From an uncultured Methanosarcinales archaeon (lineage in GTDB: Archaea; Nanobdellota; Nanobdellia; Woesearchaeales; GW2011-AR4), in NCBI GenBank assembly GCA_964623945.1, contig CAZUWB010000001.1, forward strand, positions 1 to 24,285: 24,285 bases of DNA. The letters are read 5' to 3'. Made by a program: the position numbers and the translations under genes. Below, in pieces: positions 6,128-19,077 of the stretch. How positions within the stretch are numbered: the stretch's first letter is position 1; every line of letters starts with the position of its first letter. Under the pieces are notes generated by a model that saw nothing but the letters and a program-made list of their open reading frames with translations, made no database searches and was not told where the DNA came from.

Positions 6128-7483
6128 TCAATGTGCAACTAGTACAACTTCTTCTTTAGGTTGAAAAGCTTCTCTTAGAACCGTTTCCATTAATAATTCT
6201 GAATTCTTCTGATTTTCTTTAATTTTCTGTTCCAATTCATCACAAAATTTCATTAATTGGTCAACTTTTTCAACAATACGTTTCTGTTCAGAAAGTGGAG
6301 GTAAGGGTACAGTTAGCAACCTTAATTTGCCAAGACTGGTTCTTTGTCTGGTCATACCAGTTGCTTTAGCAACCACTAAATTTCTTATGATTTCAGAGTT
6401 TAATAAATATTTGATATATTCTTTAGATACTAATTTATGTGGCTTAAACTTAACACAATCTGAACATAGCACATATCTATTATGCAAATTTGGGATTATT
6501 GTAGTCCTTGCAACAGGAGCCATCTTTGCGATAACTAATTCGCCAGGATAGGCATTACATCGAATTAATTCATCCGCTTTCTTTTCAGAAGTGTATACAT
6601 TTTTTCCTTCTTTCCAGAATCCTTCACCTATATTCTGTAATTGGATGATTCTTATACCATTTTCGATATAATGCTCTCTTTTCAGATTACTTCCAAAGGG
6701 ACCATCTACAAAAGAATAATTCTCTGGTGCAGATAGATTAGCTAACCTAACCCATTCCCATCCCTTAGGCAGTTTATAGGGTATTTCTTCTCCAGAGATT
6801 GGAGGTAATTCTTTTTCTTTTTTGATCTTACCTTCTTTGAAAAGTTTCTCTTTTTCAGTCTTTATTCTCCTTAACAATTCTGTGGCTGGTTCATCTTTTG
6901 GGTATTGAGATACAAGTTTTCCCTGAACAGCTTCTTGGAGAATCGATTCACGTAACTTTTGGATTAAATTGGAATCGCCTTTAAGATTATTATATACTTC
7001 ATCTTTATTTAAAAAAATAGATTTGAGTTTCTTTACAATAATCTTTTGTTCCTCTATTCCACAGTAAGGGATCATAATCTTCAATATGTCTTTGGGTCGT
7101 ATTGCAGCATAATTCGTGGAACCTTGAGCCTTAATTTGGGAGAAGAATAAGTCTGTCTTTAGAATCAATCCCAAATAATCAACTAGCAATTTGGTAGTTT
7201 CAATATCGAAAAGGAAATAGTGGCTGCTTACTATTGCGCCGTCCAAGTCTTTGGGCACAATACCATACCCACCAACTTTAGCATCGATTTCAGCTACTAG
7301 TAATTGATTAAACCTACATATTTGTTGTTTCTTTGTCTTAATTTCATTGCTTTTTACTTCATCCCTTAATACAGCACCTTTTCTATGAAGTTTTAATGTC
7401 ACTCTTTTATAAGTTTCTTTATCATTTATAGTAATAAAATCGTTCTTATACTTGACAAATTCAGATAAAGGTAGCAATTCCAT
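6128..7483 (-). CDS. hsdS: Type I restriction-modification specificity subunit (EcoAI/type IB-like)
   Basis: Two TRDs; conserved EEQK-x-IV, SILQEAVQGKL and EPATELLRRIK...LPKGWEWVRL spacer; PLPPLSEQKRIV; directly follows hsdM. Confidence 0.95.
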   Translation of the reverse strand: MELLPLSEFVKYKNDFITINDKETYKRVTLKLHRKGAVLRDEVKSNEIKTKKQQICRFNQLLVAEIDAKVGGYGIVPKDLDGAIVSSHYFLFDIETTKLLVDYLGLILKTDLFFSQIKAQGSTNYAAIRPKDILKIMIPYCGIEEQKIIVKKLKSIFLNKDEVYNNLKGDSNLIQKLRESILQEAVQGKLVSQYPKDEPATELLRRIKTEKEKLFKEGKIKKEKELPPISGEEIPYKLPKGWEWVRLANLSAPENYSFVDGPFGSNLKREHYIENGIRIIQLQNIGEGFWKEGKNVYTSEKKADELIRCNAYPGELVIAKMAPVARTTIIPNLHNRYVLCSDCVKFKPHKLVSKEYIKYLLNSEIIRNLVVAKATGMTRQRTSLGKLRLLTVPLPPLSEQKRIVEKVDQLMKFCDELEQKIKENQKNSELLMETVLREAFQPKEEVVLVAH

Positions 7484-7484
7484 A

Positions 7485-8912
7485 TTATAGCTCCTTTTTG
7501 AGATTCTCCAAAATGGTGATATTCTTATTCATTGACGTTTCTAAAAGATTTATAATCTGCTTGCTTGTCAAATTTCTGGTTTGATCTATATTATTCGGGT
7601 TATTTATATCAAGATTATAATTCCTTTTTTTAATCTCGTCAATCTTAACTTTCCAACAGTTTTCTTTAAACTTCTTACTCTCTCTATTAGTCCACCATTC
7701 TTTCTCTAGATTGAATTCACTAATACTGATAGGTTTAGTCTTGTTATAGGTTTTATACCCTTCTGGTAAAGGATGTTCAAAATACCATATCTCTTTTGTG
7801 GATTTTCCTTTTTCAAAAAATAATAAATTGGTTCTTATACCTGTGTAAGGACTAAAGACTCCATTTGGCAGTCTAATAATAGTATGTAAATTAAATTCAG
7901 ATAGAAGCTTCTCCTTAATCCTTGTTTTAATCCCTTCACCAAATAGAAATCCATCAGGTAGGACAATCCCACATCTCCCTTCTTCCTTTAGCAGCTTCAT
8001 AATTAACAATAGGAACAAGTCCGCTGTTTCTCTTGTTCTATAAGAAGCTGGGAAATTCTGCTCAACTCCTGGTTCTTCTGCTCCTCCGAATGGTGGATTT
8101 GTTACTACAACGTCAACCATATCGGAAGGACCATAATCAACCAGTGGCCTAGCAAGTGAATTATCATGCCTAATATTAGGCAATTCAATATCATGTAGTA
8201 TCATATTTGTAGTACAGAGCAAATGGGGTTGAGGTTTTTTCTCAACTCCATTTATACTTTTTTGGAGTTTTTTCCAGTCATTGTCAGTTTTAACCTCTTT
8301 TTTCATATTATTTATCGTACAAACCAAGAAACCTCCTGTACCACATGCAGGATCTAGTACTTTTTCTTTCAACTTAGGATTGACCATATCTACTATAAAT
8401 TGGGTCACAGCTCTAGGTGTGTAATATTCACCTGCATTACCTGCACTTTGTAAATCGGACAAAATCTTTTCATATAAGTCATTAAACAGATGTCTATCCT
8501 CAGTTTTATTAAAATCAATATCATTTAATTTATTGATTACCTGCCTAATTAGAGTACCCGATTTCATAAAATTATAAGCATCTTCAAAGATTTCTTTTAC
8601 TATAAAGCCCTTGGGATTATCCTCTTTAGAAACATTGAGGCTTTTAAGAGTCTTGAACATATCATTAATGAAATCAAGTAATTGTTCGCCAGTTATGCCC
8701 TCTTTGTTAGTAGCCCAATTTCTCCAGCGATATTTCTTTGGAATTATTGATTCATAATCATCATCTTCCAATTCCCATTCCTTTTCTTTGTCATCATAGA
8801 TCTTAAGGAAAATCATCCATACTAATTGAGATATTCTTTGAGCATCACCATCTACGCCAGCATCCTGCCGCATTATATCTTGAATTGATTTTATAGTATT
8901 GGATATTGACAT
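7485..8912 (-). CDS. hsdM: Type I RM N6-adenine methyltransferase subunit
   Basis: N-terminus IKSIQDIMRQDAGVDGDAQR (EcoAI-type), GEYYTPR, motif I VLDPACGTGGFL, motif IV TNPPF. Confidence 0.97.
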   Translation of the reverse strand: MSISNTIKSIQDIMRQDAGVDGDAQRISQLVWMIFLKIYDDKEKEWELEDDDYESIIPKKYRWRNWATNKEGITGEQLLDFINDMFKTLKSLNVSKEDNPKGFIVKEIFEDAYNFMKSGTLIRQVINKLNDIDFNKTEDRHLFNDLYEKILSDLQSAGNAGEYYTPRAVTQFIVDMVNPKLKEKVLDPACGTGGFLVCTINNMKKEVKTDNDWKKLQKSINGVEKKPQPHLLCTTNMILHDIELPNIRHDNSLARPLVDYGPSDMVDVVVTNPPFGGAEEPGVEQNFPASYRTRETADLFLLLIMKLLKEEGRCGIVLPDGFLFGEGIKTRIKEKLLSEFNLHTIIRLPNGVFSPYTGIRTNLLFFEKGKSTKEIWYFEHPLPEGYKTYNKTKPISISEFNLEKEWWTNRESKKFKENCWKVKIDEIKKRNYNLDINNPNNIDQTRNLTSKQIINLLETSMNKNITILENLKKEL

Positions 8913-8914
8913 TT

Positions 8915-11245
8915 TTAAGCCTCCTCGTAAATGGCTTGCTTGATTTCCCTTAACGCTTGCATATACTTTTCCTTGCCACCAAAATAATTGATAATTTCAA
9001 TAGTAGTCCCGAATTCTCTTAATGGATTTACCTTAAGGATATTTAATGTCTCTATATCCCCAATTCCTTCATCTGCATATTTCTCAAGAAGAGCATCAAT
9101 AACTTTTCTAGCTTTATCTCCATATTTAGTAAAATAGTTCCTTTTCTTTACTTTATTAATTCTTTCCTTTCGAGTCAATGGTTTTTTATCATAAGCAACG
9201 TGACAAATTAAGTCAAATTCATCAAAATCTTTACCAACCTCTTGACTGAGTTCATGTAACAAAATTCCATGCTCTATCATTTCCTTTATTAGTGCTGACT
9301 TTTGGTCTGCTTTCTTCCATTTCTGAAGGAAGTTATCCAATGATTTAAACTCTTCATTAACAGTTTTCTTAGTATAGTCTTTCAAAGATTCTGTTACTAA
9401 TTTTCCATCTTTATCAAAAATTTGTACACGTTCATTCAATACACGCACCTCGACATCTTTTACGTGGTACTTTCTAGGTTGCTCAGGTGACTCATTTAAA
9501 AGATAAATCTGCTCTTGAACTGACTGATATGCTTTTTGAGCATCAATCACAGGAAGAACAATTGGCTCATCTGCACTAAAATCCTCTGCTTGAACAGGCT
9601 CTCCATCAAAGTCGGGGTCAGCGAAGAGATGTGTAACTTGTCTAAAATCCATTATGGTAAAGTAATATTTTCCATAATCTTCTCTTATACGTGTGCCTCT
9701 ACCAATAATTTGCTTGAACTCTGTCATCGATTGAATATTAGTATCCAAAGCAACGAGCTTACAAGTCTGGACATCGACACCAGTGTTGAGTAATTTAGAT
9801 GTTGTAGCAACTACAGGATATTTTGAACTTGGATCAATAAAGTTTTCCAATTCTTTCTTTCCAAAGTCGTCATCTCCTGTAATCCTTACAATATACTTTG
9901 AGCTTTTAGTATACATATCCTTATTTTCATTCCAGAGAGCCCTTCTCATTCGCTCTGCATGCTCAACATCTACACAAAATACTATTGTTTTATCATGTCG
10001 ATTTGTTTTCTTTATAAATTCACTTACTTTCTTTGCCACTATCTTAGTTCGTTCATCAATGACTAGACTTTTATCAAAATCTTTAGCATTATAGATTCTA
10101 TCCGGGACTTCATACCCGTATTTATCAATTTTGCCTTTCTCTGGTCTATAACCTTCTACATCCTTATCAATGGAGATTCTTATGACTTTATATGGAGCTA
10201 GGAAGCCATCTTGAATACCCTGTTTTAAAGAATAAGTGTATATTGGTTTTCCAAAATAATCGATATTTGAGATAGTAGCTGTTTCTCTGGGTGTAGCTGT
10301 TAAACCAATTTGCGTGGCTTTAGGAAAATACTCAAGAACTTCTCTCCATGCAGAATCAGCAGCTGCACTTCCTCTATGGCACTCATCAACAACAATAAGG
10401 TCAAAGAAATCTCTAGAGAATTGCTTATAGATATTCTTCCACTCTTCGTTACCTGTTACTGCCTGATAGAGTGCTAAATAAATCTCGTATGATGTATCAA
10501 CTTTTCTATCAGCAATCTTAGTCATCGCTCCTTTAAATATCTTAAAATCATTAATTCGTGCCTGAGTTAGTAGTATATTTCGGTCTGCTAGGAATAATAT
10601 TCTCTTTTTAGCCTTTGACTTCCAAAGTTTATATATGATTTGAGATGCTACATAAGTTTTTCCTGTACCTGTTGCCATTACAAGCAAAATCCTATCTTGT
10701 CCCTTAGCTATGGCTTCTACAGTCCTATTAATGGCAATCTCTTGGTAATACCGAGGCTTCTTAAGGCCTACATGATATTCCTCTGTGATGATTCTCTCCT
10801 GTTTTTCAGTAATTCCTTTCCACTTCTTATAACGCTGCCATAGGTCACTGGGCTTTGGAAACTTATTGAGCGGGTATTCTTTTTCGGCTTCTTGAGACAT
10901 ACCAGTCCTATCATGTTCTATAAAACCATCTCCATTAGAACTATAGATAAAAGGAATATCAAGGATTTCTCCATATTCTATCCCTTGCTGTAAGCCAGCA
11001 CCTATTGAATGGTTATTATCCTTAGCCTCAATTATCGCTATAGGTATGTTGGCTTTGTAATAAAGGACATAATCTGCTCTCTTTCTTTCCCCTCTTTCAA
11101 TTTTCTCACCTTTAACAATGATTCTACCATTGGTAAAGTAAACCTCCTGCCTAACCTGATTCTTAAGATGCCAGCCAGAGGTTACTATCGCTGGAGTGAT
11201 AAATTGGGTGCAAATATCTGCCTCTGATAGCGATTTCTTGTTCAT
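8915..11245 (-). CDS. hsdR: Type I RM restriction subunit (EcoAI/EcoEI-like)
   Basis: LSEADI N-terminus, nuclease ADY...IIEAK, MATGTGKT, VDECHRG, GLTATP, QIIGRGTR, EcoEI_R_C-like C-terminus. Confidence 0.97.
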   Translation of the reverse strand: MNKKSLSEADICTQFITPAIVTSGWHLKNQVRQEVYFTNGRIIVKGEKIERGERKRADYVLYYKANIPIAIIEAKDNNHSIGAGLQQGIEYGEILDIPFIYSSNGDGFIEHDRTGMSQEAEKEYPLNKFPKPSDLWQRYKKWKGITEKQERIITEEYHVGLKKPRYYQEIAINRTVEAIAKGQDRILLVMATGTGKTYVASQIIYKLWKSKAKKRILFLADRNILLTQARINDFKIFKGAMTKIADRKVDTSYEIYLALYQAVTGNEEWKNIYKQFSRDFFDLIVVDECHRGSAAADSAWREVLEYFPKATQIGLTATPRETATISNIDYFGKPIYTYSLKQGIQDGFLAPYKVIRISIDKDVEGYRPEKGKIDKYGYEVPDRIYNAKDFDKSLVIDERTKIVAKKVSEFIKKTNRHDKTIVFCVDVEHAERMRRALWNENKDMYTKSSKYIVRITGDDDFGKKELENFIDPSSKYPVVATTSKLLNTGVDVQTCKLVALDTNIQSMTEFKQIIGRGTRIREDYGKYYFTIMDFRQVTHLFADPDFDGEPVQAEDFSADEPIVLPVIDAQKAYQSVQEQIYLLNESPEQPRKYHVKDVEVRVLNERVQIFDKDGKLVTESLKDYTKKTVNEEFKSLDNFLQKWKKADQKSALIKEMIEHGILLHELSQEVGKDFDEFDLICHVAYDKKPLTRKERINKVKKRNYFTKYGDKARKVIDALLEKYADEGIGDIETLNILKVNPLREFGTTIEIINYFGGKEKYMQALREIKQAIYEEA

Positions 11246-11266
11246 GTTATATGTTGATGTTATATG
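11244..11266. repeat. Direct repeat ATGTTATATG x2 abutting the hsdR start
   Basis: ATGTTATATG at 11244-11253 and 11257-11266, with a 3-nt spacer. Confidence 0.5.
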
Positions 11267-11323
11267 CTGAAGAATATAGTATTTGTTTAATAAATATTGC
11301 TAAAATTATAGCAAAACCATATA

Positions 11324-12091
11324 TCAGTTATCATCTATAAAGAAAGATATAAAGCGCTTTCCTAATGGTGTCAAATAATCCTTTGTCATCTTATCATAAG
11401 CAGTTTGAGTTGTTAGCATACCGGGAAATGGAATCTCAGTTGAAGTAAAACCTTTATCCTTCAATTCTTTTGAAGCAAGCCTTACAAGCTCGATATCTAC
11501 ACCATCAAATACTTTTTTAAAGACTTCGCCCTCACCTCCTGATTGTGCTCGCAGACCATTAACGTCAATACCTTTCTCAGTTAGTATTTCTTTTGGGCTA
11601 TTGAAGTAAGAAAAAATTGCAAAGTGTAAGTCACTAAAACTTATTAAGCTATTAATGAAATATTCTACTTCAAAATTAGTTGGTTTCTTTCCGACTGCTA
11701 TGTTTACTAAGGCACTCCTAAAAGCCTCAACCTTTGGTTCATACTGCTCATGCTTAATTGGATCAAGAAATCTCTGAATATATGCCTCAAATTCCTCTTT
11801 TTTTAAGTATTCAGCATCAATTTTTGATTCTAGTTGCTTTAGTCTTTCAAATAAAAGCATCAAAAAATCTAATTGCTTTCTTTGTGATGCGCTTGTAACA
11901 AAATTCTCTTTGAGAAAACTAATTACATCTCCGGTAGCCTGAGCTTGTGGTGATAGTATTCCTAAACTGCTTAAAATATTAGTTGCTAGCGTTGTTAGAC
12001 CATTCAATACATCTGAAGCCTCTCTCCTTTCTATTAAATCCCTGACTTCTTTGCCATCCTTTTCAAGAATATCATCAGGTAGGTCTACCAT
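11324..12091 (-). CDS. Hypothetical helical protein, Abi-alpha/DUF4393-like (255 aa)
   Basis: Pattern K-x-EAFRSALVN...FINSLISFSDLHFAIF with a terminal LTPLGKRFISF winged-helix-like end, typical of Abi-alpha-like proteins. TTTATAAT box 22 nt before the ATG. Sits directly upstream of the RM genes. Confidence 0.45.
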   Translation of the reverse strand: MVDLPDDILEKDGKEVRDLIERREASDVLNGLTTLATNILSSLGILSPQAQATGDVISFLKENFVTSASQRKQLDFLMLLFERLKQLESKIDAEYLKKEEFEAYIQRFLDPIKHEQYEPKVEAFRSALVNIAVGKKPTNFEVEYFINSLISFSDLHFAIFSYFNSPKEILTEKGIDVNGLRAQSGGEGEVFKKVFDGVDIELVRLASKELKDKGFTSTEIPFPGMLTTQTAYDKMTKDYLTPLGKRFISFFIDDN

Positions 12092-12151
12092 TGAGGCTTG
12101 GAATATTTATAGTATTATAAAGATGTAGGTCTAAGCGGTAAAAATGCATCT

Positions 12152-12937
12152 TCAAGTCACCAAAAACTCAATCAATTTCTTACTCGCCTCAGCAATCACC
12201 TCCAAGTTTTCCATAATCTTCTTATAATCAGCATCATACAAGGCAAGATAGTTAAAGCTCTTGATTTCAAGGCCAAAGTGCTTGGAAACCACATAAGCAA
12301 CTCCTTCGGCCTGTATTTCCTTCTGCTGCCGGGAAGCCTTACTGTCCTTGCGGTGTATCAGCTCATGGCTAATCTCATGGAGCAGGGTATTAACCTGCGT
12401 ATTAACGCTTTGGCTAAGCCCTATTGCAATCCTACCGCCTAAGCTATAACCATAGAGGTTATTGATGCCAAGCTCTTCAAAATCAACCTCTATATCATGC
12501 CAATAGCAGAATTCAAGCAGCTTATGGAGGAGATCAAGGTGCTCTTCACCCTGAACCTCTATATCAATGTCAGGCAGCTCCTGGCCCTCTGTTTGAGATA
12601 CGTCAAAGACACTCACAGGATAGAACCTAATTACCTCTATTTCCTTATCCTGCTCCTCATCATACTGCTTGAAGGTAAAGGGGGCTAGAATCCTGATAGC
12701 CTTGCTGCCAGCCTTTATAGACCTTCCAAGGCCATTCCAGGTAACAAAGCCTGCTACCCTTGTAGCATCTTTCTTCTGGAAGTAGATAAGCAGCTGGTTG
12801 TGGTAGCTGTAATTCCAGAACCTTGACATGGTGTCCAAGTACTCCTTAAAGAACTCAGAAGCCCTAACTTTATCAGTTTCCTCAGCAAGCTCTTTTAGCC
12901 TGCTTTCTATCTCTTTTAAGAGCTGAGGGGTGTCCAT
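12152..12937 (-). CDS. ardC: ArdC-like anti-restriction protein: N-terminal ssDNA-binding domain plus HExxH metallopeptidase (MPTase) domain
   Basis: YS-x-x-NQLLI...A-x-x-VAGF-x-TW...GR-x-IKAGSKAIRILAP...VFDVSQT is the ArdC-N signature. LLHEISHELIH...E-x-x-AE is the zincin motif. GGGGGTG RBS. Confidence 0.85.
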   Translation of the reverse strand: MDTPQLLKEIESRLKELAEETDKVRASEFFKEYLDTMSRFWNYSYHNQLLIYFQKKDATRVAGFVTWNGLGRSIKAGSKAIRILAPFTFKQYDEEQDKEIEVIRFYPVSVFDVSQTEGQELPDIDIEVQGEEHLDLLHKLLEFCYWHDIEVDFEELGINNLYGYSLGGRIAIGLSQSVNTQVNTLLHEISHELIHRKDSKASRQQKEIQAEGVAYVVSKHFGLEIKSFNYLALYDADYKKIMENLEVIAEASKKLIEFLVT

Positions 12938-13042
12938 TTAGACCACCCCCATACTTTGCGGCAGATTACCGCAAAACTCGCAGAAGATGAGATTTAATGC
13001 TTCTTCTACTATATATTCACATATATGGTCTTTTCCTAACAT
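12938..13042 (-). CDS. Unannotated 34-aa Cys/His microprotein (putative Zn finger)
   Basis: MLGKDHICEYIVEEALNLIFCEFCGNLPQSMGVV*. Perfect GGAGGTG RBS 8 nt before the ATG. Its TAA directly abuts the ardC ATG. HxC...CxxCG motif. Confidence 0.7.
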   Translation of the reverse strand: MLGKDHICEYIVEEALNLIFCEFCGNLPQSMGVV

Positions 13043-13061
13043 TTTTTATGCACCTCCAGAT

Positions 13062-13171
13062 GCGATTTTCTTGAGGTGTCATACAACGGAGCAGCCATGA
13101 TGTTTTAGAGAAGCGACCTGTAAGGGAAAACACAATGAAGCTGTGAAGTGAGCCTCACAGGAGAAAATCGC
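13062..13171 (-). other. Long imperfect stem-loop in the leader of the microprotein-ardC transcript
   Basis: GCGATTTTCT (13062-71) is the exact reverse complement of AGAAAATCGC (13162-71). Nested pairs: TGAGG/CCTCA, CAGC/GCTG, CAT/ATG, TGTTTT/AAAACA. Confidence 0.65.
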
Positions 13172-13255
13172 TTATGGAGTGCTGGCAATGTTTGGAAAGG
13201 GGCATAGTGAATGAAGAAGGAGTGGTGCATGAATTTCTGTATGCAAGTAATTAGC

Positions 13256-13263
13256 TATAAAAA
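13256..13263. promoter_or_regulatory. Possible bidirectional TATA element (TATAAAAA / TTTTTATA)
   Basis: ATG at 13287 on + lies 23 nt downstream. ATG at 13230 on - lies 25 nt downstream. Confidence 0.4.
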
Positions 13264-13274
13264 GGGGTAAATCG

Positions 13275-13586
13275 ATGGATACCTTGATGGGTAAAAAGAT
13301 TAGTGTAAAGTTATCTGATGAGTTTTTTGATGCTGTAGCAATGATTTCTAAAGTTAAGAATCTTGAAGAAACTGAATTAGTGACAGAAGCTTTAATTGAA
13401 TCTATTAGGTATGAGAGAGAAGGAGCTATCAGAAAGTTAGAGAGGAAGTGGGCTATAGGCAAGATTGCAGAGCCCGAATTGCGCGCTATGATAGGAGATG
13501 AAGCTGCTGATTCTATAATTTATAAAAATAATGCAAGGCGGGCTTTGATAAAGGATATGGAGCTACTCAGGTTTGATGTTAATTAA
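13275..13586 (+). CDS. Ribbon-helix-helix (CopG/Arc-like) transcriptional regulator with a helical C-terminal extension; true start may be the ATG at 13287
   Basis: KKISVKLSDEFFDAV...KNLEETELVTEAL fits the beta-strand/helix/helix RHH pattern. Confidence 0.65.
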   Translation: MDTLMGKKISVKLSDEFFDAVAMISKVKNLEETELVTEALIESIRYEREGAIRKLERKWAIGKIAEPELRAMIGDEAADSIIYKNNARRALIKDMELLRFDVN

Positions 13587-13664
13587 GAGAAGTACTTTTA
13601 ATTCTGTTTAGTCCATCAATTAAAACAAAAGATTTATATTTAAAGGAGATAGGTCTTTTAAAGA

Positions 13665-13955
13665 ATGGAAACACAGAAAGATGCAATGGAATTGGCTACA
13701 TATTTAAAAGGTTATTACGATGATAATAACTTCTTACCTTCAGAGCAAACAATTAGAGAGGAAACTAAATGGCCTGGTGGTAAAATAAGAGGTTCGTTAA
13801 GATATCTTCAAAAGCGGAAGATTCTAGAAGTTGAGTTTAAAGGCACTAATTTTGTTATAAAGACTGCACCAGATAGAGCTAAATTTAAAAGAAGTTTTAA
13901 GCATGAGGTTAATTTAGGCATCTATAAATATAGTTGGGGAGCAGAAGAAAGATAG
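13665..13955 (+). CDS. Small winged-helix protein resembling the LexA DNA-binding domain (96 aa)
   Basis: YY..NNFLPSEQTIREE...KIRGSLRYLQKRKILEV resembles the LexA N-terminal PS-x-RE wHTH. No peptidase domain. TTTATATT box 24 nt before the ATG. Confidence 0.5.
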   Translation: METQKDAMELATYLKGYYDDNNFLPSEQTIREETKWPGGKIRGSLRYLQKRKILEVEFKGTNFVIKTAPDRAKFKRSFKHEVNLGIYKYSWGAEER

Positions 13956-13991
13956 ACCTCAAAATTAGAGTATTTCTTTTTCATTTCAAAA

Positions 13992-14342
13992 TCACTTTCC
14001 ACTCTTTTTACTGAATTCAAATCCCATTTTCCCGAACTTAAGGCCTCCACTATAAGTAATCGGATGCTCTTTCTCGTAATTAGAATGAGCCTGCTCTAAT
14101 GCTTCTTTATATTTCCTTGTTAATTCTAAAGTTTCTGATACTGGAATGGCATGATTAAGTATAGAATAATTATATACTTCAGCATCAAATTGGAGCGCAA
14201 GCAGCTCTCCTTCACTTCTTTTTATAGAAGAATTTTTAGTCTTTTCTATATCTCTTAACTTCTTTTTGATAAACTCTTCTTTCTCCATTTTAGATGCTTG
14301 CTCTGCTCTTAAATAATCTTCTGGCTTAAACTCCATTTTCAT
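13992..14342 (-). CDS. Hypothetical protein (116 aa)
   Basis: Open frame with normal composition; TTTAAAAT box 18 nt before the ATG; no recognisable motif. Confidence 0.6.
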   Translation of the reverse strand: MKMEFKPEDYLRAEQASKMEKEEFIKKKLRDIEKTKNSSIKRSEGELLALQFDAEVYNYSILNHAIPVSETLELTRKYKEALEQAHSNYEKEHPITYSGGLKFGKMGFEFSKKSGK

Positions 14343-14391
14343 TTAGTTATCATCTTTACTATTTTAAAGTTTCTGAGAAAACCTTAGGAAT

Positions 14392-14730
14392 TTATTTAAG
14401 AGTATCAAGCTTTGCCTGTTTCTCATCTAGTTTATCCAGCTCTTTTAACCTTGTGCATATCACTATCCTAAACTTAGGGATTCCCTCAGCTGCAACCATT
14501 TCTCCAGTTTTAAGCTGCTCGGCTAAAGCAAACCTTTCTCTGTGAGTTTTTATCACAGTATAGCTTTGCTTCTGGCCATCTTTTTCAATCTTAAGCGTTA
14601 TATTGCCATTCTTAGTAATTGTCTTGCCTACTATTTTCCCTTTAGTCCTCATTCTTCTCTTGAAGATCTTAGCAATCTTCTCTTTCTTTGCAAGGACTTT
14701 CAAGGTGTCAATGAGCCTTGTGTCTATCAT
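14392..14730 (-). CDS. Small OB-fold nucleic-acid-binding protein (112 aa; start corrected to MIDTRL)
   Basis: TKGKIVGKTITKNGNITLKIEK...LAEQLKTGEMVAAEG fits the OB-fold strand pattern (G-x-V...l..GD-x-V-x-v-x-G). The ATG at 14730 lies 1 nt after the HEPN TAA. Confidence 0.55.
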   Translation of the reverse strand: MIDTRLIDTLKVLAKKEKIAKIFKRRMRTKGKIVGKTITKNGNITLKIEKDGQKQSYTVIKTHRERFALAEQLKTGEMVAAEGIPKFRIVICTRLKELDKLDEKQAKLDTLK

Positions 14731-14731
14731 G

Positions 14732-15232
14732 TTATTGTATAATTTCCTTCGTTTTTGCAATTACTTCCTTAGCTTGCTTTAATAATTGCTCATATAGATT
14801 ATCCTTCATGGATAGTTCTACACCATATTGAAAGCGCTCCCTTATACTGGTTGTAGTTTCATTGCTACCATCATTTAAAGATGTAATCTTATTTAATAGA
14901 GCATGATCAAACTCAATTTTTCCATTCTCAATTAAACTATAGATTACAGAGAAAGTGCAATCCTGATTTCTTGATTCGTAGCCATACCTGACTGCAATAG
15001 CCAGCATACAATGGTACATGGAATAGAAGATAGTGCTAGCGCTAATATCAGAATAATTGCCCTCCTTAAGATATTCAGTTGCCTTTAGATAATGCTCTGC
15101 CTTTGTTACATGCTCGGCAGCAAGCTTCTTATTTGGTTTAACCTTGACTAAGCCTTTATGTATTCCTCTTTCTTTCATCTCTTTTTCTGCTTTCTTTAAG
15201 CACCATTCCATCTTATTTTTTGCGTGTGTCAT
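14732..15232 (-). CDS. HEPN-domain protein (UPF0332-like; putative toxin)
   Basis: FYSMYH...G-x-ESRNQ-x-C...RERFQYG; ATGA overlap with the upstream nucleotidyltransferase gene. Confidence 0.85.
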   Translation of the reverse strand: MTHAKNKMEWCLKKAEKEMKERGIHKGLVKVKPNKKLAAEHVTKAEHYLKATEYLKEGNYSDISASTIFYSMYHCMLAIAVRYGYESRNQDCTFSVIYSLIENGKIEFDHALLNKITSLNDGSNETTTSIRERFQYGVELSMKDNLYEQLLKQAKEVIAKTKEIIQ

Positions 15233-15813
15233 TGTTTCATCATCTCAATTATGAGATCCTCCCCAAATGCGACTATTCCTTTTAAGGCGTTAAGTAACAC
15301 TTTATCTCCCTTATTGATATTTTTTATAAAATCTTCTTGGGATTGAAAAACTGGCTGAATTTTCTTTACATTCAAATTATTAATTTCTTCAATCTCTTTC
15401 TCGGCTCTTGAAAACCTTTTTTGGTCAGTTATTAAAACAGCATCTATATCCCTTGCTTCTTTATGCTTCCTTAAAACTGAACCAAAAAGAATAGCTGCAT
15501 CTGCATTCTTTATTTTCCTAATTTCTGAAATCCAAACCTTGACATAGGGATGGGCTTGCTCAGCCTCCCTTTTCAATAAGAATTTAACGTATTGCCTCAC
15601 ATAATCGCTGTCCAGATTAAGCTTGTAAAAGGTAGCATTTGCCAGCTGCTTTGGAATTACCATTTCCTCTTTCTCCAGCCTTTTAAGTATCTTGAATGCT
15701 CCCATTGCACTTAACCCTATTTCTTTTGCCAGGTTATAGGCATTGTAGTCTTTTTCCGGACTTTTGAATATGGTCAGCACCAGTTTCATCTCATTATCTG
15801 TTATTTCAGCCAT
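15229..15813 (-). CDS. Winged-HTH plus minimal nucleotidyltransferase (MNT) fusion; putative antitoxin/repressor
   Basis: N-terminal NAYNLAKEIGLS...KILKRLEKEEMV HTH; Pol-beta motif ILFGSVLR...DIDAVLI. Confidence 0.9.
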   Translation of the reverse strand: MAEITDNEMKLVLTIFKSPEKDYNAYNLAKEIGLSAMGAFKILKRLEKEEMVIPKQLANATFYKLNLDSDYVRQYVKFLLKREAEQAHPYVKVWISEIRKIKNADAAILFGSVLRKHKEARDIDAVLITDQKRFSRAEKEIEEINNLNVKKIQPVFQSQEDFIKNINKGDKVLLNALKGIVAFGEDLIIEMMKQ

Positions 15814-16287: not shown

Positions 16288-19077
16288 TCATTCGGTTTTT
16301 CTTGGGCTTATTTCTTGCGATTTTTTGTCCGCTGAAAAGTAACTTCTCAGCTGCTTGCACACATTTTTTCTTGTGAATGTTTTGCCTAAGTTTTCATACT
16401 GATAAGCATAAGGAGCATCAGAAACCACAAAGAACCATTCTGCAAATTTCTCATTCAAAAGTGAAATCTTTTTCTGCAACAAGTCCTTTCGTTTATCAAA
16501 AGTAATTCCTGTCTCAACTTCAATGGCAATCTTTTTCTTTCCAATCTCAAAAATAATATCTGGATTATTAGCTTCAAAAGTTTTCACTTTATCAGTAAAC
16601 TGCAATAAGTATTCCTCAATCGCTTTTACCAAGAAAAAATGAGTAGTGCTTTCTCTTGATGAGGGCTTTAACAAGTAAACTTCCTGCCTGCCCCCTCCTA
16701 ATGGAACGTGGGAGCTTAAAACGTATTTCTTGCCAAGCAGGAATTTTATCTCATCCTCATTCAGATTTTTCTTTGCATAGAAGCCTTTATCTTCATCCAC
16801 CTTAATTATGACTTTTGGCTTTGCTTCTTGCTTTGGTACATCCTCATTCAGCTTGAGAAGTTCATCTGCATTAGTTGTAATGAGAATATGCTCCTCCTTT
16901 GAGGCGATGCTCCTTATCTCAGTATGCTCATTCTCCATTAATAAAATTCCTTCTCCAACACTTGCGCTCAGAAGCTTGTCTACTTCAGTTTGGCTAAGGC
17001 TAAAGGTCTTGATAACATTCTCAATCACAGCAGCCTCCTGCCTCATCAAGAGCTTATAGGCTGAATTTTGGAGTATGGCATTCGCAGCTCGGCTCATCAA
17101 GAGATCTGCCACATCTTGGGTAATGAGAAGTAATCCTAGATTGAATTTTCTGCACGTCTTGACAATCTCTAGGATATATTCAGAATCCTCAGCCCTGCTC
17201 AGCAATGACCAAGCCTCATCCACAATTAGGAGCTTTCTTTCCTTATTCTTTCGCATCTTCATATAGACATAATCAAGAATCAGGAACATATTGACTGGTT
17301 TAGCCTGGCGGGGCATATCTCCTATTATGAAGCCCACTAGCTGATTATCAAAGTTCAACTGAGTTTGCCTATTGAAAAAAGAGAAAACGCCATCTACAAA
17401 CATTGAAAGCCTGTTAATTAGGCTGCGGTATGTCTCTTTTTCTATGACTGTTGCATTTTTAGCCTGCCTTTCTAACTCCTGAAGCAAATCTCCTAAAATT
17501 GGCGGTTCATTATTCCAGCTTGCAGGCTCATTGGTAATTCCTTTCTTCTCATAGGTTAATGTCAAAGCTTTATCCAAAACAGCTTTCTGAATCTCAGATA
17601 CATTTCCCAGCATTATAGGGAATAAATCCATTAGAGATAGCCTTTTCTCAGCGTAATCATGCCCTAAAAGGTCTAAGGGATTAATTACAGTCTTTGAGTT
17701 CCTAGAGAAGTTCACAATCTGCCCATCAAATGCCTGTATTAGCTTAACATATTCCGATTGAGGATCAATAATGTTTACCTGTACTCCATTGAGCAGCTGC
17801 CGAATTATGAACAGTTTGGTCCAATAGCTTTTGCCTGCTCCAGAGCTTGCAAGCAGTATCCCATTGGGGTTTGTGAGTTTGAATATGTCTTTGATTATGG
17901 GAATATTGTTTCTATTGACGCCTAACCATACCCCTGATAGGTTGAGCTGTAGGAATTGAGATGTAAAAGGATAAAAAGCAGCTAATGCTTTAGTAGTGAT
18001 GTTCCTGCTCATGCCTAGCTCGTTTTCAGCTAATGGGATAGTGGATTTAAGGCCAGCCTTCATTCTAAAGAGGGCTTTTTTAGGGATAATGAGCATAGCA
18101 TTAAGTTCAGCCTCTACTTGCTTAGTTATGAGGTCAAGCTGCTCTTGGGTAGTGGCCTTGCAGTTAATGTAGAATGAGACATAGTACAGCTTTTCATTTC
18201 CTTTTTGCAGGTTCTCCAAGACTGCCCTAGTATCCTGATATTGAATCTCTAATGTGGGATTTATGCTAGATTTAAGCTCTGATGCAAACAGGTCAGCTCT
18301 CTGTTTTTGCAATTCCCTGTTTAGCATGACCATCATGGAATCAATGGGAATTGGCTCTATGAATAATGAAATGTCAAAAATGCCATTTAGAGTAATTATC
18401 TTGTCTAAGAAACCGATTTCTACGCTTCTGGGATAGCCGTCTGCATAGATTATCCTGCATTGCTTATCGCCAACTATTATTCTGTCTGGTAAATTTTTGA
18501 TGTACTTAGGAGCAATGATATAATGCAGATAATTTTCCTCTGTAACCTGAATATTGTCTTTGAACTTATCGCTATCGGTCAAAATGTCATTAAAGAAGCT
18601 GGCTAGTGTCTGCGTTAATTCCTCATCATTTAGCTTCCTGAATTTAAGGTTTAAGCTCCGGAGCTGCTGCTCTATCACTCCTAACTGCACGTTAAGGCCA
18701 ATTTCAGGCTTTTCGGGGATTACAACATAGAAGTTCCTGTTTATTACAGAATTGTCCTTGATTGTGTTTATAAGGTGCTCTTTATAACTTTCAAAATGCT
18801 TAAGGAGAATGTATTTCTTGTTTTTCTTAACTTGTTCCTCTACTCTTATTTCTAAAGCATTAATGTAACTGTCAAGATTAATATGGTTCGTGCTGACAAC
18901 TATCTGAATAGGAAAATCAAGGGCATTAAGGAACTTCTGGAATCCACTATTGACAACCTGCTTTTCTTTGTCATTTCTGATAGTGAAGTTTATTGGCTCA
19001 ACCTCTATAATGGATAATCTCCTTAAATTATAGTCCTGGTTTGCCTTAGGTAAGACGCTTTTTAGTTTTGTTAGCAT
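16288..19077 (-). CDS. virB4: VirB4/TraC-family conjugative ATPase with an N-terminal accessory domain and a C-terminal PD-(D/E)xK nuclease-like domain (929 aa)
   Basis: Walker A ASSGAGKS, IIDPQSEY, Walker B LIVDEAW, RKFNLGLLLITQ. N-terminal VEPINF...FQKFLNALDFPIQI. C-terminal ESTTH...PDIIF...IAIEVETG. Follows prgI. Confidence 0.9.
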   Translation of the reverse strand: MLTKLKSVLPKANQDYNLRRLSIIEVEPINFTIRNDKEKQVVNSGFQKFLNALDFPIQIVVSTNHINLDSYINALEIRVEEQVKKNKKYILLKHFESYKEHLINTIKDNSVINRNFYVVIPEKPEIGLNVQLGVIEQQLRSLNLKFRKLNDEELTQTLASFFNDILTDSDKFKDNIQVTEENYLHYIIAPKYIKNLPDRIIVGDKQCRIIYADGYPRSVEIGFLDKIITLNGIFDISLFIEPIPIDSMMVMLNRELQKQRADLFASELKSSINPTLEIQYQDTRAVLENLQKGNEKLYYVSFYINCKATTQEQLDLITKQVEAELNAMLIIPKKALFRMKAGLKSTIPLAENELGMSRNITTKALAAFYPFTSQFLQLNLSGVWLGVNRNNIPIIKDIFKLTNPNGILLASSGAGKSYWTKLFIIRQLLNGVQVNIIDPQSEYVKLIQAFDGQIVNFSRNSKTVINPLDLLGHDYAEKRLSLMDLFPIMLGNVSEIQKAVLDKALTLTYEKKGITNEPASWNNEPPILGDLLQELERQAKNATVIEKETYRSLINRLSMFVDGVFSFFNRQTQLNFDNQLVGFIIGDMPRQAKPVNMFLILDYVYMKMRKNKERKLLIVDEAWSLLSRAEDSEYILEIVKTCRKFNLGLLLITQDVADLLMSRAANAILQNSAYKLLMRQEAAVIENVIKTFSLSQTEVDKLLSASVGEGILLMENEHTEIRSIASKEEHILITTNADELLKLNEDVPKQEAKPKVIIKVDEDKGFYAKKNLNEDEIKFLLGKKYVLSSHVPLGGGRQEVYLLKPSSRESTTHFFLVKAIEEYLLQFTDKVKTFEANNPDIIFEIGKKKIAIEVETGITFDKRKDLLQKKISLLNEKFAEWFFVVSDAPYAYQYENLGKTFTRKNVCKQLRSYFSADKKSQEISPRKTE

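What the first reader, a model, noticed from the sequence alone, without database searches (positions are those of the whole stretch)
13043..13263. Switchable structured leader controlling the anti-restriction operon
Seen: on the minus strand a ~110-nt rod (13171-13062) is mutually exclusive with a short hairpin in which CACCUC (13078-73) pairs with the RBS GAGGUG (13056-51). Rod formed means RBS free; rod broken means RBS blocked. A 41-codon ORF (13230-13105) starts 25 nt after a TATA-like box and runs through the 5' arm of the rod. Inference: either translational attenuation or a riboswitch, or an Frpo/ssi-like hairpin acting on the transferred single strand. The ssDNA model predicts that oriT lies downstream (left) of ardC.
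Basis: partly seen in the sequence, partly recalled or inferred. Interest (0 to 1): 0.7.

Follow-up and report, generated by a model that had tools for sequence, protein, structure and literature searches.

The report
Conserved ribosome-site-masking leader before anti-restriction genes
Upstream of the anti-restriction gene ardC lies a conserved, folded leader of about 165 bases, absent from the RNA family database, that base-pairs with and hides the ribosome-binding site and start codon; it recurs before several anti-restriction genes in mobile elements of tiny (DPANN) archaea, and what opens it is unknown.

Summary
On the minus strand, 13198-13032 folds into one closed, branched structure. 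It recurs in 25 related loci, where 34 of its 50 base pairs show compensatory changes (shuffles 15.1 +/- 2.4).

The proposed switch logic is wrong. When the rod forms, box GCACUCCA (13182-13175) pairs with the Shine-Dalgarno sequence (13057-13051), and 13198-13187 pairs with the start codon. Predicted SD accessibility is about 0.04 across the family. The 41-codon uORF is absent in 15 of 20 relatives.

The element precedes a conserved 31-50-aa HxC...CxxC mini-protein. After that comes ArdC-like, ArdA or other small genes, in integrated conjugative-type elements binned to Nanoarchaeota/Woesearchaeota. Other ardC leaders keep the same clamp around different cores, or around none.

Best reading (0.55): a cis-acting mRNA leader that keeps translation off until an unknown trigger acts. 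A single-strand-DNA (Frpo-like) role is neither supported nor excluded. Rfam has no match. No transcript data exist.

The parts
13256..13263 (-). TTTTTATA, a candidate archaeal TATA box. A start about 25 nt downstream (~13230) would put the whole fold inside the 5' UTR.
   Evidence: Read directly from the sequence. TATA-like boxes lie 48-100 nt upstream of the 5' box in many relatives, but at variable distance. This is inference; no transcript data exist.
13199..13255 (-). G-poor (C/U/A-rich) 5' stretch ahead of the fold. It contains the non-conserved uORF start at 13230.
   Evidence: G is 0-13% of the 60 nt upstream of the box in 20 relatives. The uORF is absent in 15 of 20.
13187..13198 (-). 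P0 5' arm (UUUCCAAACAUU). It pairs with the start codon and first codons.
   Evidence: MFE pairs 13198-13187 with 13043-13032. The AUG is 0.99 paired in the ensemble. The same pairing occurs in relatives and tracks different N-terminal codons. Cognate duplexes average -8.3 against -6.1 kcal/mol for non-cognate ones.
13175..13182 (-). Distal anti-SD box GCACUCCA. It pairs with UGGAGGUGC (the SD plus its flank).
   Evidence: The pairing is present in every relative. The flank pairs covary (GC:17/CG:3 and AU:20/GC:2). Other leader classes show matching changes: UCGACCUCC with GGAGGUCGA in L006 and UCACCUCCAGC with GCUGGAGGUGA in L066.
13162..13171 (-). P1 5' arm (GCGAUUUUCU), U-rich.
   Evidence: Pairs with 13071-13062. 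10 of 11 P1 pairs show compensatory changes in 25 sequences.
13153..13157 (-). P2 5' arm UGAGG, an SD-like sequence that pairs with the proximal anti-SD.
   Evidence: Family consensus. 4 of 5 pairs have compensatory changes, but only 78% of cells are paired.
13092..13143 (-). Conserved core: P3 (13143-13127 with 13106-13092) enclosing the P4 hairpin (13125-13123 with 13119-13117). The P5 hairpin of most relatives is missing in this copy.
   Evidence: P3 is 97.7% paired with 7 compensatory pairs. The P4 stem length varies by matched insertions. The window's own MFE prefers a different local pairing.
13079..13091 (-). Conserved junction strand (CUCCGUUGUAUGA). It includes the two J pairs to 13149-13148.
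   Evidence: Nearly invariant columns. The J pair G-C changes to A-U in 5 sequences.
13072..13078 (-). Proximal anti-SD CACCUC(A). It pairs either with UGAGG (P2) or with the SD GAGGUG.
   Evidence: RNAalifold consensus hairpin with the SD. It takes over SD pairing (0.85) when the 5' arm is absent.
13062..13071 (-). P1 3' arm (AGAAAAUCGC), A-rich.
13050..13058 (-). UGGAGGUGC: the Shine-Dalgarno sequence GGAGGUG (13057-13051) plus flank.
   Evidence: GGAGGTG is invariant in the first 18 sequences, 6-9 nt before the ATG. One later relative (L083) has AGAGGTG.
13032..13043 (-). P0 3' arm: the AUG (13042-13040) and the first three codons.
12938..13042 (-). 34-aa ORF MLGKDHICEY...CEFCG (HxC...CxxC mini-protein), the first gene controlled by the leader. 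Its stop abuts the ardC ATG (TAAATG).
   Evidence: Conserved as a 31-50-aa ORF right after the leader in 13 of the 18 type-1 leaders listed, and in the later loci L065, L077 and L081. It also follows type-2 leaders in L002, L005 and L051. No Pfam match.
12152..12937 (-). ArdC-like gene (ArdcN ssDNA-binding domain plus an M78/ImmA-IrrE peptidase domain).
   Evidence: Pfam PF08401 E = 5e-8 and PF06114 E = 8e-6. 421 homologues at E <= 1e-20, named Nanoarchaeota/Woesearchaeota/archaeon where a name exists.

Best explanation
This is the 5' leader of the mRNA for the operon (mini-protein then ArdC-like). It folds into a closed, branched structure that hides the whole translation start.

How the start is hidden:
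- A distal box pairs with the Shine-Dalgarno sequence and its flank.
- A second box further upstream pairs with the AUG and the first codons.
- A U-rich/A-rich helix (P1) and a short helix (P2) zip the two arms together over a conserved junction core (P3/P4, and P5 in most relatives).
- A proximal anti-SD (CACCUC) sits just upstream of the SD. It can mask the SD locally whenever the long-range clamp is not formed. This gives a double lock.

Inferred purpose: translation of anti-restriction and establishment genes stays off while the element is resident. This element carries its own type I restriction-modification genes just downstream.

Inferred release: an unknown trans-acting trigger (protein, RNA or small ligand) acts on the conserved core or on the G-poor 5' arm.

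Shown: the fold, its conservation and covariation, the masking of the SD and AUG, and the gene association.

Inferred: that the folding molecule is RNA, that the transcript starts upstream of 13198, and that a trigger exists.
For: - Each relative folds into the same architecture on its own.
- On a sequence-only MAFFT alignment, 87.8% of cells pair and 20 pairs have compensatory changes, against 10.1 +/- 1.9 in shuffles (0/500).
- On 25 model-aligned sequences, 91.2% of cells pair and 34 of 50 pairs have compensatory changes, against 15.1 +/- 2.4 in shuffles and 6-12 for slid controls.
- The pairing always ends on functional translation signals. The SD is invariant in the first 18 sequences, 6-9 nt before the ATG.
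- The box-SD-flank pairs covary, also across different leader classes.
- The upstream P0 arm changes together with different N-terminal codons: MF[RE]K, MKRK, MKEK, MKANK.
- Predicted SD accessibility is 0.04 in full leaders. For the window, the SD is 0.85 paired and the AUG 0.99 paired.
- Type 2, type 3 and the core-less minimal hairpin keep the same distal anti-SD clamp around different or absent apical domains. Type 2 also has a proximal anti-SD hairpin.
- G.U pairs sit inside helices, including an invariant one in P3. A.C mismatches sit mostly at helix ends.
- The 5' arm is always U-rich and the arm next to the SD always A-rich. The 5' flank is G-poor.
- TATA-like boxes lie upstream of the fold.
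Against: - There are no transcript data: no RNA run holds the locus. The start site and the RNA nature of the fold are therefore unproven.
- No ON state is visible. Even with the 5' arm removed, the SD stays masked in most relatives. The outer stems look too stable for a simple ligand switch.
- The opposite strand folds more stably than the sense strand in 19 of 20 relatives, under both RNA and DNA parameters. Thermodynamics therefore does not pick the sense strand.
- The window's own lowest-energy core differs from the family consensus by about 8 kcal/mol.
- The gene set and the two copies per element resemble what single-strand promoters precede in bacterial plasmids.
Confidence: 0.55

Rival explanations
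1. Single-strand DNA element, an archaeal counterpart of Frpo/ssi. The fold forms in the transferred strand on entry into a recipient. It then recruits RNA polymerase or a primase, giving early expression of anti-restriction genes or priming of the complementary strand.
For: - The element sits before ardC, ardA (PF07275, E = 1.4e-26) and other small genes in elements with VirB4/TraC, PrgI and pilin genes.
- There are two co-oriented copies per element in L055 and L083.
- The + strand (template for ardC) folds as DNA at -31.1 kcal/mol with z = -4.56 and follows the family consensus.
- The antisense strand is more stable in 19 of 20 relatives.
- Frpo elements precede such genes in plasmid leading regions (PMC11541004).
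Against: - No sigma-70-type -35/-10 pair occurs in 12900-13400 (0 found, 1.1 expected).
- There is no similarity to any plasmid record.
- The fold is branched with a conserved junction, not a promoter-like duplex.
- The model gives no reason for the pairing always to cover the SD and start codon, or to covary with the first codons.
- The interior G.U pairs, including the invariant one, would be C.A mismatches in the template strand.
- oriT and the transferred strand are unknown.
Confidence: 0.12
2. Metabolite- or signal-binding riboswitch. The conserved P2-P3 internal loop and the P3/P4/P5 junction form an aptamer. The clamp is its expression platform. The different cores (types 1-3) would be different aptamer classes.
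For: - Highly conserved unpaired nucleotides are flanked by covarying helices.
- Alternative anti-SD pairings exist.
- Interchangeable cores sit inside the same clamp.
Against: - No Rfam family matches, even at E <= 10.
- The downstream genes give no ligand clue.
- Both predicted conformations mask the SD.
- The outer stems alone are worth about -23 to -34 kcal/mol, which is unusually stable for a ligand-gated P1.
- A core-less version exists (L069).
Confidence: 0.15
3. Translational attenuation by a leader peptide. Ribosomes translating the 41-codon uORF (13230-13105) would melt the 5' arm and free the SD.
For: The uORF exists in the window. It starts 26 nt after the TATA-like box and runs through P0, the box, P1, P2 and P3.
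Against: - 15 of 20 relatives have no ATG-ORF through the 5' arm.
- The five that do differ in start position, frame and length.
- The 5' region is G-poor, so start codons are rare there.
Confidence: 0.03
4. Origin of transfer (oriT), or another DNA site bound by the neighbouring ribbon-helix-helix-like protein (13275-13586, + strand).
For: It is an inverted-repeat-rich intergenic region between divergent genes in a conjugative-type element.
Against: - Two copies per element occur, each immediately before a gene start.
- The upstream neighbour differs between loci: RadC in L055, L077 and L081.
- The pairing is tied to the SD and AUG.
Confidence: 0.03

Closest known systems
Frpo / ssi single-strand DNA promoters of F and IncI1 plasmids (Masai & Arai 1997; surveyed in PMC11541004)
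   Same: A long folded element directly upstream of anti-restriction or establishment genes of conjugative elements. There can be several co-oriented copies per element. The would-be template strand folds very stably as DNA.
   Different: - No -35/-10 elements and no sequence similarity.
- Branched, with a conserved junction.
- The stems include the SD and start codon and covary with the coding sequence.
- The hosts appear to be DPANN archaea, which use TBP/TFB promoters.
- The position relative to oriT is unknown.
Long-range SD/AUG-masking mRNA leaders opened by a trans-factor, such as the E. coli rpoS leader opened by DsrA/RprA (recalled from general knowledge, not tested here)
   Same: An upstream arm of the 5' UTR pairs with the translation initiation region and keeps translation off by default. 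Activation would need something that captures the upstream arm.
   Different: - This leader adds a conserved multi-helix core and a second, proximal anti-SD.
- No activator is known.
- It is archaeal and borne on a mobile element.
- It is a family with interchangeable cores.
Translational riboswitches that bury the SD in or next to P1
   Same: Covarying helices surround conserved unpaired nucleotides. The SD is part of the closing helices. Alternative pairings are present.
   Different: There is no match to any Rfam family. No ligand is known. The closing helices are much longer and more stable. The SD is masked in both predicted states.
STAXI motif (Rfam RF01728; PMC2864571)
   Same: A structured motif found near Ssb, antirestriction and integrase genes. 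Its authors also debated RNA versus single-strand DNA.
   Different: STAXI is a tandem pseudoknot repeat in Enterobacteriales. There is no covariance-model match here, and the architecture and taxon differ.

Membership tests
Frpo/ssi single-strand DNA promoter | Sequence similarity to known Frpo/ssi elements of plasmids | tested here: not met
   blastn (word 11) of 11300-14400 against 72,556 plasmid records gave no match.
Frpo/ssi single-strand DNA promoter | -35 (TTGACA) and -10 (TATAAT) elements placed in the hairpin stem | tested here: not met
   The consensus scan of 12900-13400 on both strands found 0 sites, with 1.1 expected. An archaeal TATA/BRE equivalent inside the stem cannot be scored with these tools.
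Frpo/ssi single-strand DNA promoter | Stable hairpin in the transferred (template) strand | tested here: inconclusive
   The + strand DNA fold is -31.1 kcal/mol with z = -4.56. Which strand is transferred is unknown.
Frpo/ssi single-strand DNA promoter | Location in the leading region next to oriT, with genes templated by the T-strand | not testable with these tools
   No oriT or recognisable relaxase domain was found. The 1205-aa protein has only a RecD2/TraA-type helicase part.
Frpo/ssi single-strand DNA promoter | Transcription from single-stranded DNA early after transfer | not testable with these tools
   This needs an experiment.
Riboswitch (any described class) | Match to a curated aptamer model | tested here: not met
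   Rfam 15 gave 0 hits at gathering score for the whole window and only noise at E <= 10. The same holds for the type-2 leader.
Riboswitch (generic definition) | Conserved structured domain supported by covariation, in a 5' UTR | tested here: met
   34 of 50 pairs have compensatory changes, and the junction nucleotides are conserved. The 5' UTR status is inferred.
Riboswitch (generic definition) | Two mutually exclusive folds, one of which exposes the SD | tested here: not met
   Both the closed fold and the CACCUC hairpin mask the SD. P(unpaired) is 0.04 for full leaders and 0.16-0.22 after removal of the 5' arm. These are predictions only.
Riboswitch (generic definition) | Direct binding of a small ligand | not testable with these tools
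   No ligand clue comes from the gene context.
Leader-peptide translational attenuator | Conserved uORF overlapping the regulatory helices | tested here: not met
   The uORF is absent in 15 of 20 relatives.
STAXI motif (RF01728) | Covariance-model match / tandem pseudoknot repeats | tested here: not met
   The architecture is described in PMC2864571.
SD/AUG-masking cis-regulatory mRNA leader (functional class) | Conserved base-pairing of the SD and start codon with upstream leader sequence | tested here: met
SD/AUG-masking cis-regulatory mRNA leader (functional class) | Both arms present on the same transcript | not testable with these tools
   No RNA-seq holds the locus. TATA-like boxes lie upstream of the fold.

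The most novel reading that the evidence does not exclude
One sequence with two jobs. In the resident double-stranded element, read-through transcripts carry both arms and are translationally dead because of the double lock. In the incoming single strand, the same fold forms in DNA and acts as an archaeal hairpin promoter. Its transcripts lack the 5' arm and are translated. This would be an archaeal, mechanistically distinct analogue of Frpo, giving a burst of anti-restriction proteins only on entry. The interchangeable cores (types 1-3) would be alternative recognition modules.
Probability: 0.1. Interest if true: 0.9.

Novelty: new variant of a known kind. Interest (0 to 1): 0.66.

Why it matters
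Very few cis-regulatory RNAs are known in archaea, and I know of none for mobile elements of DPANN archaea. I found no paper describing one, though the literature searches were limited.

This leader family marks a set of early or establishment genes in integrated conjugative-type elements: ArdC-like, ArdA, a DUF6573-like family and a 76-82-aa family. It could therefore be used to find new anti-defence genes, much as Frpo has been used in bacterial plasmids.

It also offers a concrete system for asking how a mobile element that carries both restriction and anti-restriction genes keeps the latter silent until transfer. It would also help settle whether DNA transfer in these archaea proceeds through a single-stranded intermediate.

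Tried and rejected
- Rfam at gathering and permissive thresholds: nothing.
- blastn against plasmids: nothing.
- Pattern scan of viral contigs: 15 hits, all chance (start-codon/SD look-alikes on the other strand).
- RNA-seq search: none for the window. Three metatranscriptomes from the study of L041 hold nothing.
- uORF model: rejected on conservation.
- Strand test by G.U versus A.C counts: 32 versus 18. It favours the sense strand only after noting that the A.C cells sit at helix ends.
- Strand test by energy: points the other way, because the sense strand is G-poor. I treat the strand question as unresolved.
- Forcing every consensus pair in constrained folding gave large penalties for all sequences, caused by isolated pairs, and was uninformative.
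- First attempt to mirror-align the 5' arm was unreadable and was dropped.
- A k-turn, a bulge-helix-bulge motif and known self-cleaving ribozyme cores were looked for by eye and not found. No tool test was run beyond Rfam.
- PDB and Pfam searches of the 76-aa protein behind the second copy: nothing.

Full report
**What is at the site**

The window is a conjugative-type element. It carries the following:
- a VirB4/TraC ATPase (16288-19077), a PrgI-like protein and TrbC/VirB2-type pilins;
- a HEPN/nucleotidyltransferase pair;
- a type I restriction-modification system (hsdR 8915-11245, hsdM 7485-8912, hsdS 6128-7483);
- a 1205-aa protein with a RecD2/TraA-type helicase part.

All of these are on the minus strand.

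The gene at 12152-12937 (-) has an ArdC N-terminal ssDNA-binding domain and an M78/ImmA-IrrE peptidase domain. Directly upstream, with TAA abutting the ardC ATG, is a 34-codon ORF (13042-12938). It reads MLGKDHICEY...CEFCG. A perfect Shine-Dalgarno sequence, GGAGGTG (13057-13051), lies 8 nt before its ATG. A divergent + strand gene starts at 13275. The finding covers the 230 nt in between.

**Check of the observation**

The region folds better than chance: -53.7 kcal/mol, z = -3.0.

The rod does not stop at 13171/13062. In the minimum-energy fold, GCACUCCA (13182-13175) pairs with UGGAGGUGC (13058-13050), which is the SD. UUUCC.AACAUU (13198-13187) pairs with AAUGUU.GGAAA (13043-13032), which is the start codon and the next codons.

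In the predicted ensemble of the full leader, the SD bases are 0.84 paired with this distal box and the AUG is 0.99 paired. The two structures exist, but both hide the ribosome-binding site. The rule 'rod formed means RBS free' does not hold.

**Relatives**

- A scan of one genome per species with the ArdC-like protein found 15 loci. Twelve are titled Nanoarchaeota or Woesearchaeota, including a single-cell genome. Two are titled Methanosarcinales, one Poribacteria and one Patescibacteria.
- The protein database holds 421 homologues at E <= 1e-20. Where named, they are Nanoarchaeota, Woesearchaeota or 'archaeon'. Two sit on contigs of 617 kb and 737 kb, with a VirB4/TraC gene and an integrase gene near the first, so these look like integrated elements.
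- The window itself comes from groundwater metagenomes.
- Four of the genome loci carry an upstream sequence clearly alignable with the window.
- A degenerate pattern from that alignment found 17 more loci in metagenome contigs.
- A covariance model built from 18 unique sequences found further copies through ArdC homologues, including divergent ones.

This gives 25 distinct sequences in all.

**The conserved fold (5' to 3', sense strand)**

- P0: an upstream arm pairs with the AUG region.
- A distal anti-SD box, GCAC(n)CUCCA, pairs with UGGAGGUGC.
- P1 has a U-rich 5' arm and an A-rich 3' arm.
- P2: (U)GAGG pairs with CCUC(A).
- A conserved internal loop holds two J pairs.
- P3 is a long helix with an invariant U/C mismatch next to a nearly invariant G.U pair.
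- P4 is a CCCUU...AAGG hairpin whose stem lengthens by matched insertions.
- P5 is a GGC...GCC hairpin, absent in the window.

Each sequence adopts this architecture on its own.

Covariation statistics:

| Alignment | Cells paired | Pairs with compensatory change | Shuffle control | Slid control |
|---|---|---|---|---|
| MAFFT only, not fitted to the structure | 87.8% | 20 | 10.1 +/- 1.9 (0/500) | 2-8 |
| 25 sequences, model-aligned | 91.2% | 34 of 50 | 15.1 +/- 2.4 (0/500) | 6-12 |

The P0 arm follows the coding sequence:
- UUUUCUAAACAU with AUGUUUAGAAAA (MFRK);
- UUUUUUCUUUU with AAAAGAAAAAA (MKRK, L003);
- CUUUCAU with AUGAAAG (MKANK, L050).

Cognate P0 duplexes are on average 2.2 kcal/mol better than non-cognate ones.

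In the window, the lowest-energy core (13161-13153 with 13125-13117) is a local alternative to the family core. The family fold scores -42.7 against -50.6 kcal/mol. The outer clamp is the same in both.

**What the leader precedes**

- In 13 of the 18 first type-1 leaders, the leader is followed by a 31-50-aa HxC...CxxC mini-protein and then a second gene. Three later type-1 leaders (L065, L077, L081) show the same mini-protein.
- The second gene is ArdC-like in most. It is ArdA (PF07275, E = 1.4e-26) in L031, L035 and L049.
- In L034, L040 and L045 it is a 118-aa family with a YTSEQAEEDG motif and a weak DUF6573 hit. In L032 a 134-aa member of that family follows the leader directly, with no mini-protein.
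- In L050 it is an unknown 147-aa protein.
- In L003, L037, L047 and L048 the leader sits directly before ardC.
- L055 and L083 each carry a second, divergent, co-oriented copy before the same 76-82-aa protein family (83% identical).

**Other leader classes in front of ardC homologues**

- Type 2 (L002, L005, L006, L051, L053) has a different conserved core (UUCCAACUUAAKG ... AAACCNAUAAGAGAAC). Five of its pairs show compensatory changes. It has its own proximal anti-SD hairpin.
- Type 3 (L066/L067) has a GC-rich core inside a long AU-rich P1.
- L069/L070 have only the clamp: GCACUCUCCAAAAUU-loop-AAAUUUCGGAGGUGC.
- In all of these, a distal box pairs with the SD and its flank, and the flank changes in step: GUGC/GCAC, GUCGA/UCGAC, GUGA/UCAC.
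- L004, L072 and L079 have a U-rich/A-rich hairpin that abuts or overlaps the SD.

The shared feature is masking of the translation start. The apical domain is exchangeable.

**How it most likely works**

The pairing always ends on the SD and the AUG, and it covaries with their flanks and with the first codons. This is what selection on an mRNA structure that blocks initiation would produce.

Several further features fit this reading:
- The proximal anti-SD lies right next to the SD. It would close as soon as the SD is transcribed. The long-range clamp is the stable end state.
- The A-rich arm next to the SD and the G-poor upstream region suit a start site that is efficient once opened.
- The 5' arm avoids SD-like sequences.

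I therefore read the element as a default-off translational lock on anti-restriction and establishment genes. That makes sense for a resident element which here also carries hsdRMS. Predicted SD accessibility is 0.04 in full leaders.

What opens the lock is unknown. Candidates are a factor binding the conserved core, or an RNA or protein that captures the pyrimidine-rich 5' arm. Removing the 5' arm in silico exposes the SD in only 5 of 18 sequences.

The uORF idea fails on conservation.

**The single-strand DNA alternative**

The gene set and the two copies per element recall Frpo elements of bacterial leading regions (PMC11541004). The + strand folds as DNA with z = -4.56. The antisense strand is more stable than the sense strand in 19 of 20 relatives. 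I attribute that last result to the G-poor composition of the sense strand.

Against it:
- there are no -35/-10 elements;
- there is no plasmid similarity;
- the shape is branched;
- G.U pairs lie inside helices, whereas A.C mismatches sit mostly at helix ends;
- the model does not explain the tie to the SD and AUG.

No RNA data exist to settle the start site. I give this reading 0.12 on its own. A dual RNA/DNA role gets about 0.1 as the most novel reading not excluded.

**Comparison with known families**

- Rfam 15 has no match for type 1 or type 2.
- STAXI, the known motif near antirestriction genes, is a tandem pseudoknot in enterobacteria and does not match.
- Functionally, the closest things are long-range SD-masking leaders opened by trans-factors and translational riboswitches. 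Positionally, the closest are Frpo/ssi elements.
- I file it as a new variant of a known kind. It is a new family of start-site-masking leaders with a double lock and exchangeable cores, in mobile elements assigned to DPANN archaea.

**Limits**

- The host assignment rests on metagenome bins, one single-cell genome and NCBI names.
- All accessibility figures are thermodynamic predictions.
- The model-aligned counts lean towards the structure, though the MAFFT-only control agrees.

Noticed in passing
L002:1109-1288, L005:1604-1783, L006:1299-1500, L051:9734-9911, L053:9834-10015: A second leader class ('type 2') before ardC homologues. It has the same distal anti-SD clamp and an AU-rich helix, but a different conserved core (UUCCAACUUAAKG ... 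AAACCNAUAAGAGAAC) and its own proximal anti-SD hairpin. There is no Rfam match.
   Followed up: partly
L066:2690-2905 (same in L067); L069:2700-2780 (same in L070): A third class has a GC-rich core inside a long U/A helix, closed by UCACCUCCAGC pairing with GCUGGAGGUGA. A minimal version consists only of the clamp hairpin (GCACUCUCCAAAAUU-loop-AAAUUUCGGAGGUGC).
   Followed up: partly
L055:5380-5518 and L083:667-805: A second, divergent, co-oriented copy of the type-1 leader in the same element. Both copies precede a conserved 76-82-aa protein (83% identical) with no Pfam or PDB match.
   Followed up: partly
window 12938-13042 (-): A conserved 31-50-aa mini-protein with an HxCE...CxxCG pattern (possible zinc ribbon) is the first ORF after the leader in most type-1 and several type-2 loci. 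No family match was found. It is too small to be called in some of the gene sets.
   Followed up: partly
window 13199-13255 (-) and the equivalent 60 nt in 20 relatives: The stretch upstream of the fold is strongly G-depleted on the sense strand (0-13% G). The 5' arm of P1 is always U-rich and the 3' arm always A-rich, never the reverse. The U-runs (up to 8) could also act as archaeal termination signals. This was not tested.
   Followed up: no
window 13030-13200, both strands: The strand antisense to ardC folds more stably than the sense strand in 19 of 20 relatives, under RNA and DNA parameters. As DNA the + strand reaches z = -4.56 and adopts the family consensus core, which the sense RNA of this copy does not prefer.
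   Followed up: partly
window 13254-13290: The single TATA-like box (TTTTTATA / TATAAAAA, 13256-13263) lies only 12 nt from the annotated + strand ATG at 13275. A second in-frame ATG at 13287 (MGKKISVKLSDEFF..., ribbon-helix-helix-like N-terminus) would sit about 26 nt from the box. A leaderless divergent transcript from a shared box is therefore conceivable.
   Followed up: no
window 6128-12937 (-): The ArdC-like gene is followed on the same strand by a 255-aa unknown and a complete type I restriction-modification system (hsdR, hsdM, hsdS). One element thus carries both restriction and a putative anti-restriction function.
   Followed up: no
window 12152-12937 (-): The ArdC-like protein pairs the ArdC N-terminal ssDNA-binding domain with an M78/ImmA-IrrE-type peptidase domain. 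NCBI names some homologues 'ImmA/IrrE family metallo-endopeptidase'. It may therefore act as an ssDNA-activated protease rather than a classical ArdC.
   Followed up: no
window 230-3847 (-): The 1205-aa protein has a RecD2/TraA-type helicase in residues ~466-1040 but an unassigned N-terminal ~460 aa. It is a candidate relaxase of an undescribed type. The 725-aa neighbour (3856-6033) has no family match at all.
   Followed up: partly
window 14732-15813 (-): An adjacent HEPN-domain protein (166 aa) and a Polbeta-type nucleotidyltransferase (194 aa, with a weak winged-helix N-terminus) look like a HEPN/MNT toxin-antitoxin pair. They lie between the T4SS genes and the ardC region. L053 has a similar pair near its ardC.
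   Followed up: no
L055, L077, L081 (upstream of the leader): In the marine relatives the leader-ardC unit is preceded on the same strand by DUF2958, SpoVG-like and RadC genes, and is followed by an integrase at the element's end. This gene set resembles bacterial leading or establishment regions.
   Followed up: no
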